Below, piece by piece: positions 3,822 through 4,871 of a DNA stretch of 5,501 nucleotides. Origin of the DNA: Candidatus Iainarchaeum sp. (GTDB taxonomy: Archaea > Iainarchaeota > Iainarchaeia > Iainarchaeales > GCA-2688035); assembly GCA_028713935.1 (NCBI GenBank), contig JAQTNI010000055.1, forward strand, positions 1 through 5,501. Direction: 5' to 3'. The notes beneath the pieces are model-generated. The model saw only the letters and a list, made by a program, of their open reading frames with translations. It did not search any database and had not been told where the DNA came from. Position numbers and translations under genes: made by a program. The first letter of the stretch is position 1; the number at the start of each line of letters is the position of its first letter.

Positions 3822-4034
3822 TTTTGCCTGTTCCTTTACCTCTTTTACAACAACTTTTCTTCTCGGCTTTTTGTGCCTTGAGCCAATAATGCAAAGCGCC
3901 TTTTCAGCAGCATAATTCGCGCTGTGCGCGCTTATTGTAAGGGAAAAATTTTTTTTGCCTTTTTTTTCCTGGATTTCCGCAGTTACTTCAAAATCCTTCA
4001 GGCCAGTCATTTCCAAAATTTTTTTTTCCGCCAT
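3816..4034 (-). CDS. rplX: 50S ribosomal protein LX (L18Ae / eL20 family)
   Basis: 72-aa ORF. DFEVTAEI...EKALCIIGSRHKKPRRKVVVKEVKE matches the LX pattern (FEV near the N-terminus, GS+H+ then a basic I/V-rich C-terminus). It has the canonical position between eif6 and pfdA. A GGTGA SD lies 4 nt upstream of ATG 4034. The internal Met at codon 9 (ATG 4010..4008) is a possible alternative start. Confidence 0.8.
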   Translation of the reverse strand: MAEKKILEMTGLKDFEVTAEIQEKKGKKNFSLTISAHSANYAAEKALCIIGSRHKKPRRKVVVKEVKEQAKR

Positions 4035-4038
4035 AACT

Positions 4039-4043
4039 TCACC
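4039..4043 (-). promoter_or_regulatory. Shine-Dalgarno GGTGA for rplX
   Basis: Minus strand reads TAA tcGGTGAagtt ATG. The TAA belongs to the relic eif6-tail mini-ORF. Confidence 0.55.
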
Positions 4044-4045
4044 GA

Positions 4046-4079
4046 TTATTCTCCGTTTAATCCTTCGTCAATTTTCATC
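4046..4079 (-). pseudogene. relic duplicate of the eif6 3' end (last 10 codons plus stop), 32/34 nt identical to 4209..4242
   Basis: Direct comparison: 4046..4079 is ttattctccgtttaatccttcgtcaattttcatc and 4209..4242 is ttattctccgcttaatccctcgtcaattttcatc. They mismatch only at 4056/4219 and 4064/4227. The relic reads ATG AAA ATT GAC GAA GGA TTA AAC GGA GAA TAA (MKIDEGLNGE*). The genuine eIF6 C-terminus is ..MKIDEGLSGE*. Confidence 0.75.
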
Positions 4080-4084
4080 CTGCC

Positions 4085-4161
4085 CTTTCTTTTCTTAGCA
4101 CATTGCAAAACAAAGTTTTGCGATGCCACGAAAAGCCTTGCTTTTCATGGAGAAAAGAAAG
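4085..4161. ncRNA. candidate structured element: 77-nt three-helix junction or TIR-bounded mini-element, family unknown
   Basis: 4085..4095 (ctttcttttct) is the perfect reverse complement of 4151..4161 (agaaaagaaag). Two abutting 25-nt hairpins lie inside. H1 is 4101..4125 (cat-t-gcaaaac aaa gttttgc-g-atg) and H2 is 4126..4150 (cca-c-gaaaagc ctt gcttttc-a-tgg). Each has a 3-nt loop and an 11-position stem with one non-Watson-Crick position at the same place. 66 of the 77 nt are in helices. The strand is not assignable: each strand gets one G.U and one A.C. Confidence 0.4.
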
Positions 4162-4208
4162 TGTAAGTTGCCCAAAGAAAAGAACCCTTGACTTTGGATA
4201 AACAATTT

Positions 4209-4871
4209 TTATTCTCCGCTTAATCCCTCGTCAATTTTCATCATTTCAATGCCTGTCGTATTCAGGCCCACAATTGCTGCCCTGCTGTTTGCTGCAACGC
4301 AGTTTCCAAGGAAAGCGTCGCCGTAATTTGCAGTTGAAAGGCTTCCTTCCAATTTAAAAAATTTTTTTGTGTCTTCAAATTCTTTTTCCGGGGCATTTGC
4401 GTTCATTGCAAAGCCCTTGTTTGTTGCAACAACGCAGCTTCCTGCAAGGTCGCTTCCCGCAATTCTGCTTGTTTTCAATTCAATTTTCAAAAATTTTTCT
4501 ATCAGGATTTTTGCCTTGCTGTTTATTGCAGGAGAACAGATTCCTTTTGAATCATTGGCTTCCAGAAGGTTTCCTATTGCACTAATGCCTGCAAGCTTTT
4601 TTATTCTTAATCCAAATGATTTCAAATTGTCAATTTCCTTGTCGGAAACAATTTCTCCCACAATAAAACCATGGCTGTTTCCTGAAGCAACAATTCCCAG
4701 CAATGGGCTTTGCGCAAGCTTTGTTTCAATAATCTCGATTCCAAACAAATCCGCGAGCCCCTTTGTTTCTTTTGGGCTTGTGCAGTGAGGCAGCAAGCCG
4801 ATTTTTTCAGTGATACAGCAAAAAACCCCTATGTGCGGGCTGCCAAGCAGGCTTCTTTTAACAATCTCCAT
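4209..4871 (-). CDS. eif6: translation initiation factor 6 (aIF6 / eIF6)
   Basis: The tracked ORF (4209..5018) is trimmed to the internal ATG at 4871..4869. MEIVKRSLLGSPHIGVF matches the canonical eIF6 N-terminus. Other matches include LLGIVASGNSHG, AIGNLLEANDSKG, GSCVVATNKG and the C-terminal STANYG...GNCVAANSRAAIVGLNTTGIEMMKIDEGL. The resulting 220 aa is the typical length. The upstream 49 codons of the ORF overlap the L31e tail in another frame. Confidence 0.9.
   Translation of the reverse strand: MEIVKRSLLGSPHIGVFCCITEKIGLLPHCTSPKETKGLADLFGIEIIETKLAQSPLLGIVASGNSHGFIVGEIVSDKEIDNLKSFGLRIKKLAGISAIGNLLEANDSKGICSPAINSKAKILIEKFLKIELKTSRIAGSDLAGSCVVATNKGFAMNANAPEKEFEDTKKFFKLEGSLSTANYGDAFLGNCVAANSRAAIVGLNTTGIEMMKIDEGLSGE

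What the first reader, a model, noticed from the sequence alone, without database searches (positions are those of the whole stretch)
4085..4161. Compact 77-nt three-helix element in the eif6-rplX spacer
An 11-bp perfect stem (4085-4095 with 4151-4161) closes over two directly abutting 25-nt hairpins, 4101-4125 and 4126-4150. The two hairpins share one design: a 3-nt loop and 3+7 Watson-Crick pairs split by a single non-canonical position at the same place. Only 5 junction nt (4096-4100) and 6 loop nt are unpaired. H1 and the reverse complement of H2 match at 16 of 25 positions, and the differences keep the pairing, which looks like a duplicated hairpin module. This density of nested complementarity is unlikely by chance, even in low-complexity AT-rich DNA. 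It sits inside a ribosomal-protein/translation-factor operon where the spacer is normally a few nucleotides. I see three possible readings. It could be a cis-acting mRNA structure controlling rplX-pfdA-ftsY expression or marking a processing site; r-protein autoregulation through rRNA-mimic mRNA structures is established, for example L1 in Methanococcus. It could be a small stable RNA. Or it could be a MITE-like insertion with 11-bp terminal inverted repeats. I find no C/D boxes, no tRNA cloverleaf and no hammerhead core, so it fits no family I know.
Basis: partly seen in the sequence, partly recalled or inferred. Interest (0 to 1): 0.7.

Follow-up and report, generated by a model that had tools for sequence, protein, structure and literature searches.

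The report
Stray copy of mobile tRNA-intron element
The three-helix hairpin between the aIF6 and LX genes is not a ribosomal-protein regulator: it is the core of one inserted copy of a repeated element, widespread in contigs resembling DPANN archaea, that usually sits in tRNA genes as an intron or directly after gene ends, and whose three conserved strands co-vary as expected for a triple helix.

Summary
Positions 4085-4161 fold exactly as described, far better than shuffled controls on both strands (z -6.7 and -6.1).

It is only the centre of a 129-nt insert (4080-4208). The insert is flanked by a 34-nt direct repeat of the last 10 codons plus stop of aIF6. Seven related lineages, including the closest (aIF6 95% identical), have a 2-15 nt aIF6-LX spacer instead. 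Two others carry a related insert at the same site.

The insert is one copy of a family with more than 120 matching stretches in metagenomes and none in viral contigs. Its parts are a pyrimidine tract, the box GGGCAACTTRCAC, a pyrimidine:purine hairpin, and GGGCAG.

Of 95 non-redundant copies:
- 18 are anticodon-loop introns of tRNA genes.
- 19 abut tRNA ends.
- 16 lie 0-2 nt after a stop codon.
- Several are flanked by 19-34 nt target duplications.

The two inner hairpins are private to this copy. The upstream pyrimidine tract is the parallel complement of the purine arm across the family, which is triple-helix geometry.

The window copy has no bulge-helix-bulge motif at its ends and lies antisense to the intron orientation. 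It is most likely a stray, unspliced insertion. How the element moves is unknown.

The parts
4209..4242 (-). Genuine 3' end of aIF6 (…MKIDEGLSGE + TAA) and the left copy of the 34-nt direct repeat
   Evidence: Repeat family D9. Translation and alignment with homologues. It matches the empty-site relative L001 at both positions where the two copies differ.
4080..4208 (-). The inserted element (129 nt), written 5'->3' on the minus strand: left part, arm 1, box, arm 2, loop expansion, purine arm, GGCAG. The + strand carries the orientation seen in tRNA introns.
   Evidence: It is a clean extra block in the alignment with empty sites L001 and L002. Covariance model R1 scores 63.9 bits, E 3.7e-12, full model, at 4080-4188 on the minus strand. 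The core is 100% identical to copies in L174, L158, L103, L102 and L097.
4185..4208 (-). Variable left part (AAATTGTTTATCCAAAGTCAAGGG), specific to a subfamily
   Evidence: Similar left parts occur at the same site in L003 and L198, and upstream of tRNA-Val in L072. No other homologues were found.
4174..4184 (-). Arm 1, pyrimidine tract TTCTTTTCTTT, the proposed Hoogsteen (third) strand
   Evidence: It is the parallel complement of the purine arm at 11 of 11 positions in this copy. Family-wide covariation supports the relation.
4161..4173 (-). Conserved box and linker GGGCAACTTACAC
   Evidence: It is invariant or nearly invariant in alignment A3. The pattern built on it found more than 120 metagenome stretches.
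4151..4161 (-).
   Evidence: Compensatory changes across 44 copies.
4096..4150 (.). Loop expansion private to this copy: a 5-nt junction (4096-4100), hairpin H1 (4101-4125) and hairpin H2 (4126-4150)
   Evidence: About 73 of 80 distinct cores have a 3-4 nt loop here. Only the window, L155 and L109 have clean extra hairpins, and L089 has a messier expansion. No homologues of H1 or H2 were found in 0.9 Mb of loci.
4085..4095 (-).
4080..4084 (-). Terminal GGCAG, the sharply defined right end of the element. On the + strand it reads CTGCC, which is the 5' end of the intron in tRNA copies.
4046..4079 (-). Second, non-coding copy of the aIF6 tail (GATGAAAATTGACGAAGGATTAAACGGAGAATAA). It reads as a 10-codon mini-ORF, MKIDEGLNGE*, from the ATG at 4078-4076.
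   Evidence: It carries two G-to-A differences from the coding copy and from L001.
4035..4045 (-). Native 11-nt aIF6-LX spacer with the LX ribosome-binding site (TCGGTGAAGTT), kept intact downstream of the duplication
   Evidence: Comparison with the empty sites L001 and L002.

Best explanation
The 77-nt three-helix element is the centre of one copy (window 4080-4208) of a non-coding, multi-copy, apparently mobile element family found in environmental contigs with archaeal, DPANN-like tRNA and ribosomal-gene features.

**Family plan, written on the window's minus strand**
- a variable left part
- pyrimidine arm 1
- the box GGGCAACTTRCAC
- pyrimidine arm 2
- a short loop
- a purine arm
- GGGCAG

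Arm 2 and the purine arm form a Watson-Crick hairpin. Arm 1 is the same-direction complement of the purine arm, so the three strands have the geometry of a T.A-T / C+.G-C triple helix.

**Where the family normally sits**
- In its commonest setting the element lies in the opposite orientation inside tRNA anticodon loops. There, its CUGCC end and a tail matched to that tRNA build the bulge-helix-bulge motif cut by the tRNA splicing endonuclease.
- It also lies directly after tRNA 3' ends or after stop codons.

**The window copy**
- It landed at the aIF6 stop codon.
- A 34-nt duplication of the target kept both the aIF6 C-terminus and the LX ribosome-binding region intact.
- It has acquired two private hairpins in the loop.
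- It lacks a bulge-helix-bulge motif and is antisense to the intron orientation, so it is probably not spliced.

**Shown:** the insertion, the duplication, family membership, the multi-copy and multi-context distribution, and the pairing and three-strand covariation.

**Inferred:**
- The element is mobile.
- The triple helix actually forms.
- This copy is a tolerated passenger. At most it adds a very stable structured block to the mRNA between aIF6 and LX, which could act as a decay barrier or a weak terminator.
For: **Insertion**
- The alignment with L001 (aIF6 95% identical) and L002 (80%) shows a clean 163-nt extra block, made of the 129-nt element plus one repeat copy.
- The site is also empty in L067/68, L069-71, L072-77, L199 and L200/201.
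- It is filled by a related element in L003/L004 and L198.

**Family**
- There are 102 instances with a module end and 80 distinct cores.
- Model R1 finds the window copy at 63.9 bits and several copies per locus, for example at least 5 in the 15-kb L153.

**Contexts of 95 non-redundant copies**

| Context | Copies |
|---|---|
| tRNA intron | 18 |
| Abuts a tRNA 3' end | 16 |
| Abuts a tRNA 5' end | 3 |
| Within 45 nt of the stop of an opposite-strand ORF | 22 |
| Within 45 nt of the start of a same-strand ORF | 10 |
| Unclassified | 26 |

- In 16 copies the GGGCAG end lies only 0-2 nt from the stop codon of an opposite-strand ORF.
- A bulge-helix-bulge motif sits at the ARAGORN splice sites in 8 of 18 module introns under strict rules and 15 of 18 under relaxed rules.

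**Target duplications**
- In other copies the duplication also starts at +1 or +2 after GGGCAG: L168 31 nt perfect, L119 27 nt, L177 26 nt, L174 19 nt perfect.

**Hairpin**
- 96.7% of cells are paired.
- 79 cells carry changes on both sides, against 25.8 +/- 7.5 in shuffles (0 of 500) and at most 6 in any slid register.

**Third strand**
- The parallel register matches at 83.6% of positions, the antiparallel register at 52.5%.
- At informative positions the count is 290 parallel against 33 antiparallel.
- Permuting partners gives 517.5 +/- 11 matches against 692 observed (0 of 2000).
- Shifting the register by +/-1-3 nt gives 51-59%.
- With a free register for both models, the mirror model is better in 52 copies, tied in 22 and worse in 3.
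- In the run-length test the count is 61 of 68 for the mirror model and 0 of 68 for the direct model.
- The window and L198 copies each fit at 11 of 11 positions.

**No splicing signal in the window**
Against: - The source genome is not in any searchable collection. I could not count copies in this organism or find its donor copy.
- Mobility is inferred from presence/absence, multiple contexts and duplications. No transposase, integrase or reverse transcriptase was linked to the family.
- L198, at the same site, has no long duplication. The duplication is therefore not an obligatory product of insertion.
- The site is occupied in 3 of 10 lineages surveyed, always in the same orientation. This could mean inheritance plus selection, that is, a function at this site, rather than repeated insertion.
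- The triple helix rests on covariation alone. The copies are related by descent, so the effective number of independent changes is smaller than the number of copies.
- On the strand that is certainly transcribed in tRNA genes, the geometry is the purine motif. From my own knowledge, that motif is considered poor for RNA.
- A quick free-register test on introns with other linker boxes did not discriminate between models.
Confidence: 0.8

Rival explanations
1. Co-opted function at this site. The element, whatever its origin, now serves the operon. It could act as a triple-helix-capped barrier that stabilises the upstream L31e-aIF6 message or the downstream LX-PfdA-FtsY message. It could also act as a partial terminator or insulator that uncouples the two halves of the operon.
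For: - The same site is occupied in the same orientation in three lineages: the window, L003/L004 and L198.
- The three arms are intact at 11 of 11 positions in both complete copies, although the peripheral parts differ.
- In this orientation the mRNA carries the U-rich, U-rich, A-rich arrangement.
- Three relatives have the module 1-7 nt upstream of a tRNA 5' end, where RNase P would leave the purine arm at an RNA 3' end, as in MALAT1 (PMC8457004).
Against: - Seven related lineages, including the closest, do without it.
- The longest T-run in the arms is 4, which from my own knowledge is weak for an archaeal terminator.
- There are no expression data.
- Intact arms may simply reflect a recent insertion.
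Confidence: 0.2
2. [quoted passage not shown] This was the first reader's third reading.
For: - It is multi-copy, non-coding, 75-200 nt long and rich in palindromes.
- Filled and empty sites both exist.
Against: - The 11-bp repeats are internal. The insert extends 5 nt beyond one of them and 47 nt beyond the other.
- The true ends (AAATTG… and …GGGCAG) are not inverted repeats.
- Flanking duplications range from none detectable to 34 nt. From my own knowledge, a DDE transposase gives a fixed short length.
- One end is precise and the other is variable.
Confidence: 0.07
3. A functional bulge-helix-bulge intron or processing site within the aIF6-LX mRNA, removed by the tRNA splicing endonuclease. 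The direct repeats would make excision restore the tight junction.
For: - The element is homologous to genuine tRNA introns.
- DPANN endonucleases are reported to be associated with increased tRNA gene disruption (PMC5829648).
- From my own knowledge, archaeal mRNA introns of this type exist (Cbf5).
Against: - No bulge-helix-bulge motif above background occurs on either strand. None is in register with the element ends (129 nt) or the repeats (163 nt), even under relaxed rules.
- The copy is antisense to the intron orientation relative to the operon's transcription.
Confidence: 0.04
4. A conserved cis-regulatory leader of rplX, either an r-protein autoregulation site that mimics rRNA, or an independent small RNA gene. 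These were the first reader's readings 1 and 2.
For: - The structure is strong and statistically exceptional.
- It sits directly upstream of an r-protein gene.
Against: - It is absent from most orthologous spacers.
- The same core occurs in tRNA introns and next to unrelated genes.
- There is no Rfam match.
- H1 and H2, which make it three-helical, are unique to this copy.
Confidence: 0.03
5. A remnant of a larger integrated virus or plasmid that used the aIF6 3' end as its attachment site. The 34-nt repeats would be attL and attR.
For: From my own knowledge, direct repeats of a gene's 3' end are the classic footprint of integrase-mediated integration.
Against: - The 129 nt between the repeats is a complete member of the repeat family, not a deletion remnant.
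- Other copies have duplications of quite different targets.
- Neither the aIF6 tail nor the family pattern is found in viral contigs.
Confidence: 0.02

Closest known systems
Transposed tRNA introns of Thermoproteales (Fujishima et al. 2010, Mol Biol Evol; as summarised in PMC4090602)
   Same: - Near-identical intron sequences occur in many different tRNA genes.
- This implies that endonuclease-spliced archaeal tRNA introns spread within genomes.
- The mechanism is unknown. PMC4090602 states this explicitly.
   Different: - This family is in contigs resembling DPANN archaea.
- It sits at the canonical 37/38 position in the cases I verified.
- It has a conserved three-strand core.
- It also occurs outside tRNA genes: at tRNA ends, after stop codons, and inside an r-protein operon flanked by a 34-nt target duplication.
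- I found no report of such ectopic copies.
ENE / MALAT1 / MEN-beta type RNA triple helices, including ENEs in transposable-element RNAs (PMC7583470, PMC8457004, PMC12501189)
   Same: - Two U-rich strands clamp an A-rich strand.
- Isolated C+.G-C triples interrupt runs of U.A-U.
- In three relatives the purine arm ends 1-7 nt before a tRNA 5' end, as MALAT1's A-rich tract ends at an RNase P site next to a tRNA-like structure.
- ENE triple helices are known to help a retrotransposon RNA survive.
   Different: - The topology is a simple third-strand, linker, hairpin arrangement. It is not a U-rich internal loop that captures a 3' tail.
- No Rfam ENE family matches.
- Most copies are oriented so that the transcribed strand carries one pyrimidine strand and two purine strands.
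- Nothing here has been tested experimentally, and the setting is archaeal.
Prokaryotic MITEs and palindromic repeats (REP/BIME, Correia elements, Rickettsia palindromic elements; reviewed in PMC10969869)
   Same: - Short, non-coding, multi-copy and rich in hairpins.
- Found at gene boundaries.
- Filled and empty sites occur among relatives.
- Assemblies break inside copies (L003, L004).
   Different: - There are no terminal inverted repeats.
- One end is precise and the other is variable.
- Flanking duplications are long and of variable length.
- The family doubles as a spliceable tRNA intron.
H-DNA-forming homopurine/homopyrimidine mirror repeats (from my own knowledge)
   Same: Arm 1 and arm 2 are mirror repeats on the pyrimidine strand, which is the sequence requirement for an intramolecular DNA triplex.
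   Different: The purine partner is also supplied in cis as a hairpin. A single strand of RNA or DNA can therefore form the triplex without supercoiling. The mirror relation is kept by covariation across many copies and is not simply a low-complexity tract.

Membership tests
Box-plus-hairpin repeat family defined here (model R1, alignment A3) | Box GGGCAACTTRCAC followed by a pyrimidine:purine hairpin and a terminal GGCAG | tested here: met
   cmsearch gives 63.9 bits, E 3.7e-12, full model 1-59, at window 4080-4188 on the minus strand. Segments of 34 nt and 17 nt are 100% identical to five other copies.
Box-plus-hairpin repeat family defined here (model R1, alignment A3) | The upstream pyrimidine tract is the parallel complement of the purine arm, aligned at the GGCA anchors | tested here: met
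   The window has TTCTTTTCTTT against AAGAAAAGAAA, 11 of 11.
Box-plus-hairpin repeat family defined here (model R1, alignment A3) | A short (3-4 nt) apical loop | tested here: not met
   The window has a 55-nt loop that holds H1 and H2. Only 3-4 of 80 cores are expanded in this way. It is a variant member.
Archaeal endonuclease-spliced (bulge-helix-bulge) intron | Interrupts a tRNA, rRNA or mRNA whose function needs the interruption removed | tested here: not met
   The window copy lies between two intact ORFs. aIF6 keeps its full C-terminus and LX keeps its ribosome-binding site. The window has no tRNA.
Archaeal endonuclease-spliced (bulge-helix-bulge) intron | A bulge-helix-bulge motif at the two boundaries | tested here: not met
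   The scanner was calibrated on family introns (8 of 18 strict, 15 of 18 relaxed). It finds nothing above background at the window's element or repeat boundaries on either strand.
Archaeal endonuclease-spliced (bulge-helix-bulge) intron | Sequence homology to verified tRNA introns | tested here: met
   The same core is found in 18 ARAGORN-called anticodon-loop introns in Ser, Tyr, Cys, Asn, Leu and Gln tRNA genes.
Classical MITE | Terminal inverted repeats at the ends of the insert | tested here: not met
   The ends at 4208 (AAATTG…) and 4080 (…GGGCAG) are not inverted repeats. The 11-bp repeats lie 5 and 47 nt inside the insert.
Classical MITE | A target-site duplication of fixed, short length | tested here: not met
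   The duplications are 34, 31, 27, 26 and 19 nt, and none is detectable in L198.
Classical MITE | Multi-copy, non-coding, with empty sites in relatives | tested here: met
Classical MITE | A parent element encoding a transposase with the same ends | not tested
   The neighbouring ORFs of module-bearing loci were not screened.
ENE / MALAT1-like RNA triple helix | Two U-rich strands and one A-rich strand, with Hoogsteen-compatible (parallel) covariation | tested here: met
   The test is at sequence level only.
ENE / MALAT1-like RNA triple helix | A match to the curated ENE families in Rfam | tested here: not met
   No such hit was found in the window at E <= 10.
ENE / MALAT1-like RNA triple helix | The A-rich strand lies at, or is processed to, the RNA 3' end | tested here: inconclusive
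   This holds by position in L072 (two copies) and L099, where the module ends 1-7 nt before a tRNA 5' end. In the window it is followed by the duplicated tail and LX, and no processing site can be inferred.
ENE / MALAT1-like RNA triple helix | Physical formation of the triplex and protection from decay | not testable with these tools
   This needs melting, CD or NMR, and decay assays.
Ribosomal-protein autoregulatory mRNA leader | Conserved in the orthologous leaders of related species | tested here: not met
   The spacer is 2-15 nt in seven related lineages.

The most novel reading that the evidence does not exclude
The family is an RNA-mediated mobile element. Under this reading:
- The excised tRNA intron, whose 5' end CUGCCC is made by the splicing endonuclease, or its antisense transcript, is copied into DNA.
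- Run-off at the RNA 5' end fixes the precise …GGGCAG-3' end of the DNA copy.
- The triple-helix hairpin next to that end protects or primes the intermediate.
- Integration at staggered breaks gives the variable 0-34 nt target duplications and the variable other end.

This would be the long-sought mechanism by which archaeal tRNA introns spread. It would also be the first conserved triple-helix element in Archaea, an analogue of the ENE elements that stabilise retrotransposon RNAs in eukaryotes.
Probability: 0.15. Interest if true: 0.9.

Novelty: new variant of a known kind. Interest (0 to 1): 0.72.

Why it matters
Similar introns in different archaeal tRNA genes have been taken as evidence that these introns move, but the mechanism is unknown (PMC4090602). 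This family gives that question concrete material:

- The same element is seen as a spliceable tRNA intron, at tRNA termini, directly after stop codons, and as ectopic insertions.
- The ectopic insertions have one precise end and long target duplications of variable length. These are footprints that constrain the mechanism.
- The three-strand covariation predicts a 10-14 triple pyrimidine-motif triple helix. It can be tested directly with oligonucleotides, and I found no archaeal precedent.
- Practically, the element breaks assemblies (L003, L004) and misleads gene callers (L198). It probably also hides tRNA genes in DPANN genome bins, where incomplete tRNA sets have been reported (PMC5829648).

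For this window alone, the result is deflationary. The structure is not an operon regulator conserved among relatives.

Tried and rejected
- **Exact-protein look-ups of the window's PfdA and LX:** the source contig is not on record.
- **Arm pattern CTTTCTTTTCTN{45,65}AGAAAAGAAAG:**
  - In viral contigs it hit 3 contigs carrying the same unrelated phage sequence.
  - In genome contigs it hit 59 loci. All are unrelated in the interior, and most belong to a Selenomonadaceae repeat.
- **Four-half-stem pattern for H1 and H2:** zero hits in viral contigs and zero in metagenome contigs. H1 and H2 are private to this copy.
- **aIF6-tail pattern and left-part hairpin pattern in viral contigs:** zero hits each. 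There is no sign of a virus or plasmid carrying the site.
- **Rfam at E <= 10:** only chance-level hits, none at the element.
- **Split-tRNA idea:** I first read the tRNA pieces next to the module as split tRNA halves, as in Nanoarchaeum. ARAGORN with introns allowed showed that the pieces tested are continuous genes with the module as the intron.
- **Diversity-generating retroelement idea:** both differences between the repeats are A in the non-coding copy and G in the gene. I rejected it for three reasons:
  - The gene copy has the ancestral bases.
  - Only 2 of the roughly 15 adenines differ.
  - The window has no reverse transcriptase.
- **Deletion scan for non-canonical introns:** I tried it on the copies where the adjacent tRNA-like sequence is broken in the T-arm. 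Many deletion lengths work, so the result is ambiguous.
- **Free-register mirror test on introns with other linker boxes:** a direct-copy control passed equally often, 8 against 8. I replaced it with the anchored and competitive tests.
- **sigma-70 promoter and terminator scan:** not informative for an archaeon.
Full report
**1. The observation**

- On the + strand, 4085-4095 (CTTTCTTTTCT) pairs perfectly with 4151-4161 (AGAAAAGAAAG).
- This stem closes over two abutting 25-nt hairpins, H1 (4101-4125) and H2 (4126-4150).
- Each hairpin has a 3-nt loop and 3+7 Watson-Crick pairs around one non-canonical position.
- RNAfold returns this three-way junction as the minimum-energy and centroid structure on both strands. 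The values are -31.9 kcal/mol (z -6.73) and -31.2 kcal/mol (z -6.09), and 0 of 200 dinucleotide shuffles fold as well.
- The junction survives folding of the whole spacer.
- H1 matches the reverse complement of H2 at 16 of 25 positions.

All genes are on the minus strand, in the order L31e, aIF6, LX (L18Ae), prefoldin alpha, FtsY.

**2.

A 34-nt direct repeat brackets the spacer: 4046-4079 and 4209-4242, 32 of 34 identical.
- Read on the coding strand, it is the last ten codons and the stop codon of aIF6 (…MKIDEGLSGE*).
- A second copy (MKIDEGLNGE*) lies directly upstream of the native 11-nt spacer and the LX start codon.
- The window therefore has a 163-nt block added to an otherwise tight junction. 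The block is 129 nt of new sequence (4080-4208) plus one repeat copy.

**3. Relatives**

The aIF6 protein places the organism among Iainarchaeum/Diapherotrites-like DPANN archaea. I surveyed the aIF6-LX junction in the contigs of its homologues.

| Locus | aIF6 identity to the window | Site | Spacer |
|---|---|---|---|
| L001 | 95% | empty | 9 nt |
| L002 | 80% | empty | 15 nt |
| L003/L004 | 76% | filled (contigs end inside the element) | – |
| L067/L068 | 75% | empty | 2 nt |
| L198 | 67% | filled | – |
| L199 | 65% | empty (LX not called) | tight |
| L069-L071 | 64% | empty | 8 nt |
| L072-L077 | 63% | empty | 10 nt |
| L200/L201 | 58% | empty (LX not called in L200) | tight |

- The nucleotide alignment with L001 and L002 shows one clean insertion in the window.
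- The aIF6-attached repeat copy agrees with L001 at both positions where the two copies differ. The LX-proximal copy is the one that has changed.
- L198 carries a complete related element between the stop codon and the LX ribosome-binding site, with no long duplication.

The element is therefore not a conserved feature of this operon. It is present in 3 of the 10 lineages surveyed, always in the same orientation and always starting right after the stop codon.

**4. Finding the family**

- The source genome is in none of the searchable collections.
- Patterns built on the 11-bp arms or on H1 and H2 found only chance matches or nothing.
- The lead came from a sensitive local search of the insert against the relatives' contigs. 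L072 holds two strong matches to the outer parts of the insert, each immediately upstream of a tRNA gene: Val-TAC and Gly-GCC.
- A degenerate pattern matching all four instances known at that point (TTTKGGCARCTTRCAYTTTYYT) found nothing in viral contigs.

**5. Anatomy of the family**

Written on the window's minus strand, a copy consists of:
- a variable left part (13-130 nt, often with its own small hairpins)
- pyrimidine arm 1
- the box GGGCAACTTRCAC
- pyrimidine arm 2
- a 3-4 nt loop
- a purine arm
- GGGCAG

Further points:
- Among 80 distinct cores, about 73 have a perfect 6-15 bp hairpin between the box and GGCAG.
- The positions of C in arm 2 and G in the purine arm move together. On a 44-copy alignment, 96.7% of cells pair.
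- On that alignment, 79 cells carry changes on both sides, against 25.8 +/- 7.5 in shuffles (0 of 500) and at most 6 in any slid register.
- Only the window, L155 and L109 have extra hairpins grafted cleanly into the loop, with L089 a messier case. L198 has one in the box linker instead.
- H1, H2 and the left part of the window copy have no homologues in 0.9 Mb of module-bearing DNA. The core segments (34 nt and 17 nt) are 100% identical to copies from several other metagenomes.
- A covariance model built from the family scores the window copy at 63.9 bits (E 3.7e-12). It finds no second copy in the window and none at any empty site. It finds several copies per locus elsewhere.

**6. Where copies sit**

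With introns allowed, ARAGORN shows that many copies lie inside tRNA genes as anticodon-loop introns of 65-202 nt. The genes are Ser, Tyr, Cys, Asn, Leu and Gln.

In tRNA sense the intron reads: 5' exon, CUGCCC, hairpin, GUGYAAGUUGCCC, purine arm, variable tail, 3' exon. This is the reverse complement of the orientation written in section 5.

The sharp GGGCAG end of the element is therefore the 5' splice site.

A bulge-helix-bulge scanner finds the canonical motif at the ARAGORN splice sites in 8 of 18 module introns under strict rules. It finds it in 15 of 18 with a 3-of-4 central helix. The inner helix is formed by CUGC(C) and a GCAG/GGCA in the tail.

Of 95 non-redundant copies:

| Context | Copies |
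|---|---|
| tRNA intron | 18 |
| Abuts a tRNA 3' end | 16 |
| Abuts a tRNA 5' end | 3 |
| Within 45 nt of the stop of an opposite-strand ORF | 22 |
| Within 45 nt of the start of a same-strand ORF | 10 |
| Unclassified | 26 |

- In 16 copies the GGGCAG end lies only 0-2 nt from the stop codon of an opposite-strand ORF.
- Some long introns hold two modules, one inserted into the other.

**7. Target duplications**

The window's 34-nt duplication is not unique. In other copies outside tRNA genes, a direct repeat of the flank starts at +1 or +2 after GGGCAG, and its partner lies at the far end of the element:

| Copy | Repeat length |
|---|---|
| Window | 34 nt (2 mismatches) |
| L168 | 31 nt, perfect |
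| L119 | 27 nt |
| L177 | 26 nt |
| L174 | 19 nt, perfect |

Weaker cases also exist. L198 has none.

So the footprint is one precisely defined end, one variable end, and duplications of variable and often long length. This does not fit a DDE-type MITE or a site-specific integrase. The mechanism is not established. Staggered-break capture and reverse-transcription-based integration are both compatible, and I could test neither.

**8. A third strand**

The alignment showed that arm 1 is not a repeat or an inverted repeat of the other arms. It is the position-by-position complement of the purine arm read in the same direction (T over A, C over G), aligned at the GGCA that follows both.

- **Fixed register, 69 distinct arm triplets:**
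  - The parallel register matches at 83.6% of positions, the antiparallel register at 52.5%.
  - At positions that can tell the two apart, the count is 290 parallel against 33 antiparallel.
- **Partner permutation:** pairing arm 1 with another copy's purine arm gives 517.5 +/- 11 matches against 692 observed (0 of 2000).
- **Register shift:** shifting by one to three positions drops the match to 51-59%.
- **Free register:** when both models may choose their best register, the mirror model wins in 52 copies, ties in 22 and loses in 3.
- **Run-length test:** the T-run next to the box equals the A-run next to GGCAG in 61 of 68 informative copies. It never equals the loop-side run.
- **Isolated C residues:** the C residues are isolated, never adjacent, in the arms listed.

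This is the design of an intramolecular pyrimidine-motif triple helix: third strand, linker, Watson-Crick strand, loop, purine strand. The window copy (4184-4174, 4160-4151, 4096-4086) and L198 each fit at 11 of 11 positions.

This is inference from covariation, with three caveats:
- The copies are related by descent.
- Formation is untested.
- On the strand transcribed in tRNA genes, the geometry is the purine motif instead. The level at which the constraint acts (RNA, single-stranded DNA or duplex H-DNA) is therefore open.

**9. What the window copy is and does**

- It lies with its intron-sense strand antisense to the operon.
- It interrupts no gene.
- It has no bulge-helix-bulge motif above background at its ends or in register with the repeats.

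The most likely reading is a stray copy of the family. It is tolerated because the duplication left aIF6 with its full C-terminus and LX with its own spacer and ribosome-binding site. In this orientation the operon mRNA would carry the U-rich, U-rich, A-rich arrangement and a very stable three-way junction. A role as a decay barrier or weak terminator between aIF6 and LX is possible. The same-site, same-orientation copies in two other lineages keep that option open at about 0.2.

**10. Comparison with what is known**

- **Thermoproteales tRNA introns.** The closest precedent is the spread of similar tRNA introns in Thermoproteales, whose mechanism is unknown (PMC4090602).
- **DPANN tRNA genes.** DPANN lineages are reported to show increased tRNA gene disruption and incomplete predicted tRNA sets (PMC5829648).
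- **Known triple helices.** The three-strand core resembles ENE/MALAT1 triple helices. Points of resemblance are their use by a retrotransposon and the RNase P-generated 3' end next to a tRNA-like structure (PMC7583470, PMC12501189, PMC8457004). The topology is different, and there is no Rfam match.
- **Literature.** Four full-text searches found no description of this family, of ectopic copies of archaeal tRNA introns flanked by target duplications, or of an archaeal triple-helix element. The library is incomplete, so prior description cannot be excluded.

**11. Verdict**

- The structure is real.
- The regulator reading fails, and the mobile-element reading is right in spirit with corrected anatomy.
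- As a feature of this operon the finding is ordinary: a repeat insertion.
- As an entry point it is interesting. It leads to a widespread family that is at once tRNA intron, gene-end element and ectopic insert. The family has insertion footprints and a covariation-supported triple-helix core.

Noticed in passing
L009-L066 (for example L056 401-471, L019 437-507): The arm-pattern scan picked up an unrelated palindromic repeat of about 70 nt (CTTTCTTTTCTTTGCTACTTTCTTTTCTTTCTCTCTCTTTTTT…AAAAAAGAGAGAGAAAGAAAAGAAAG). It is present on more than 30 contigs of rumen Selenomonadaceae MAGs (RGIG9201, RGIG9261, RGIG6591), so it is a bacterial repeat family in its own right.
   Followed up: no
L117 2358-2583; L139; L183/L184: Composite tRNA introns of 153, 202 and 165 nt hold two modules, sometimes in opposite orientations. 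This suggests that elements insert into one another.
   Followed up: partly
L100, L131, L134, L152, L162, L164, L176, L191 (contigs Ga0078972, Ga0233437, Ga0272448): In one group of long contigs the module abuts tRNA-like sequence that breaks off inside the T-arm. All these copies share an extended left part (…TTTTGGCAACTTACCCATTTATCTTTC). They may be non-canonical introns or split tRNA genes. My deletion scan was ambiguous.
   Followed up: partly
L085 and L153 introns; first half of the L117 intron; L158, L197: tRNA introns with quite different linker sequences (GTGTTACGTTATCCC, TCTACAGTCTATC, CCTTGGG, CTTCACC) look built on the same plan of a pyrimidine:purine hairpin plus a second purine strand. 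This suggests a wider superfamily. My automated test on them did not discriminate between models.
   Followed up: partly
L073 922-1818 compared with L072: A LAGLIDADG_3 homing-endonuclease-like ORF sits next to tRNA-Ala(CGC) in L073. It is not among the genes called in the otherwise syntenic L072.
   Followed up: no
L198 1439-1717: The public gene call for LX in this contig (92 aa) starts inside the inserted element. L199, L200 and L073-L077 have no LX call at all, although the gene is present. The short LX gene and the insert both mislead gene callers.
   Followed up: yes
window 4046-4078 (minus strand): The duplicated aIF6 tail begins with ATG directly after GGGCAG and reads as a 10-codon ORF ending 11 nt before the LX start. 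Three other duplications (L168, L119, L125) also have ATG within 3 nt of GGGCAG. This could be a target preference or a coincidence.
   Followed up: partly
window 4057-4062 (+ strand): One of the two changes in the non-coding repeat copy turns CTTAAT into TTTAAT, a TATA-like hexamer about 25 nt upstream of 4085 on the + strand. The idea is speculative and no evidence was sought beyond the sequence.
   Followed up: no
window 3918-3930 (+ strand): A G+C-rich hairpin (CGCGCTGTGCGCG) lies inside the LX coding region, on the strand antisense to it. The bacterial terminator scan flagged it.
   Followed up: no
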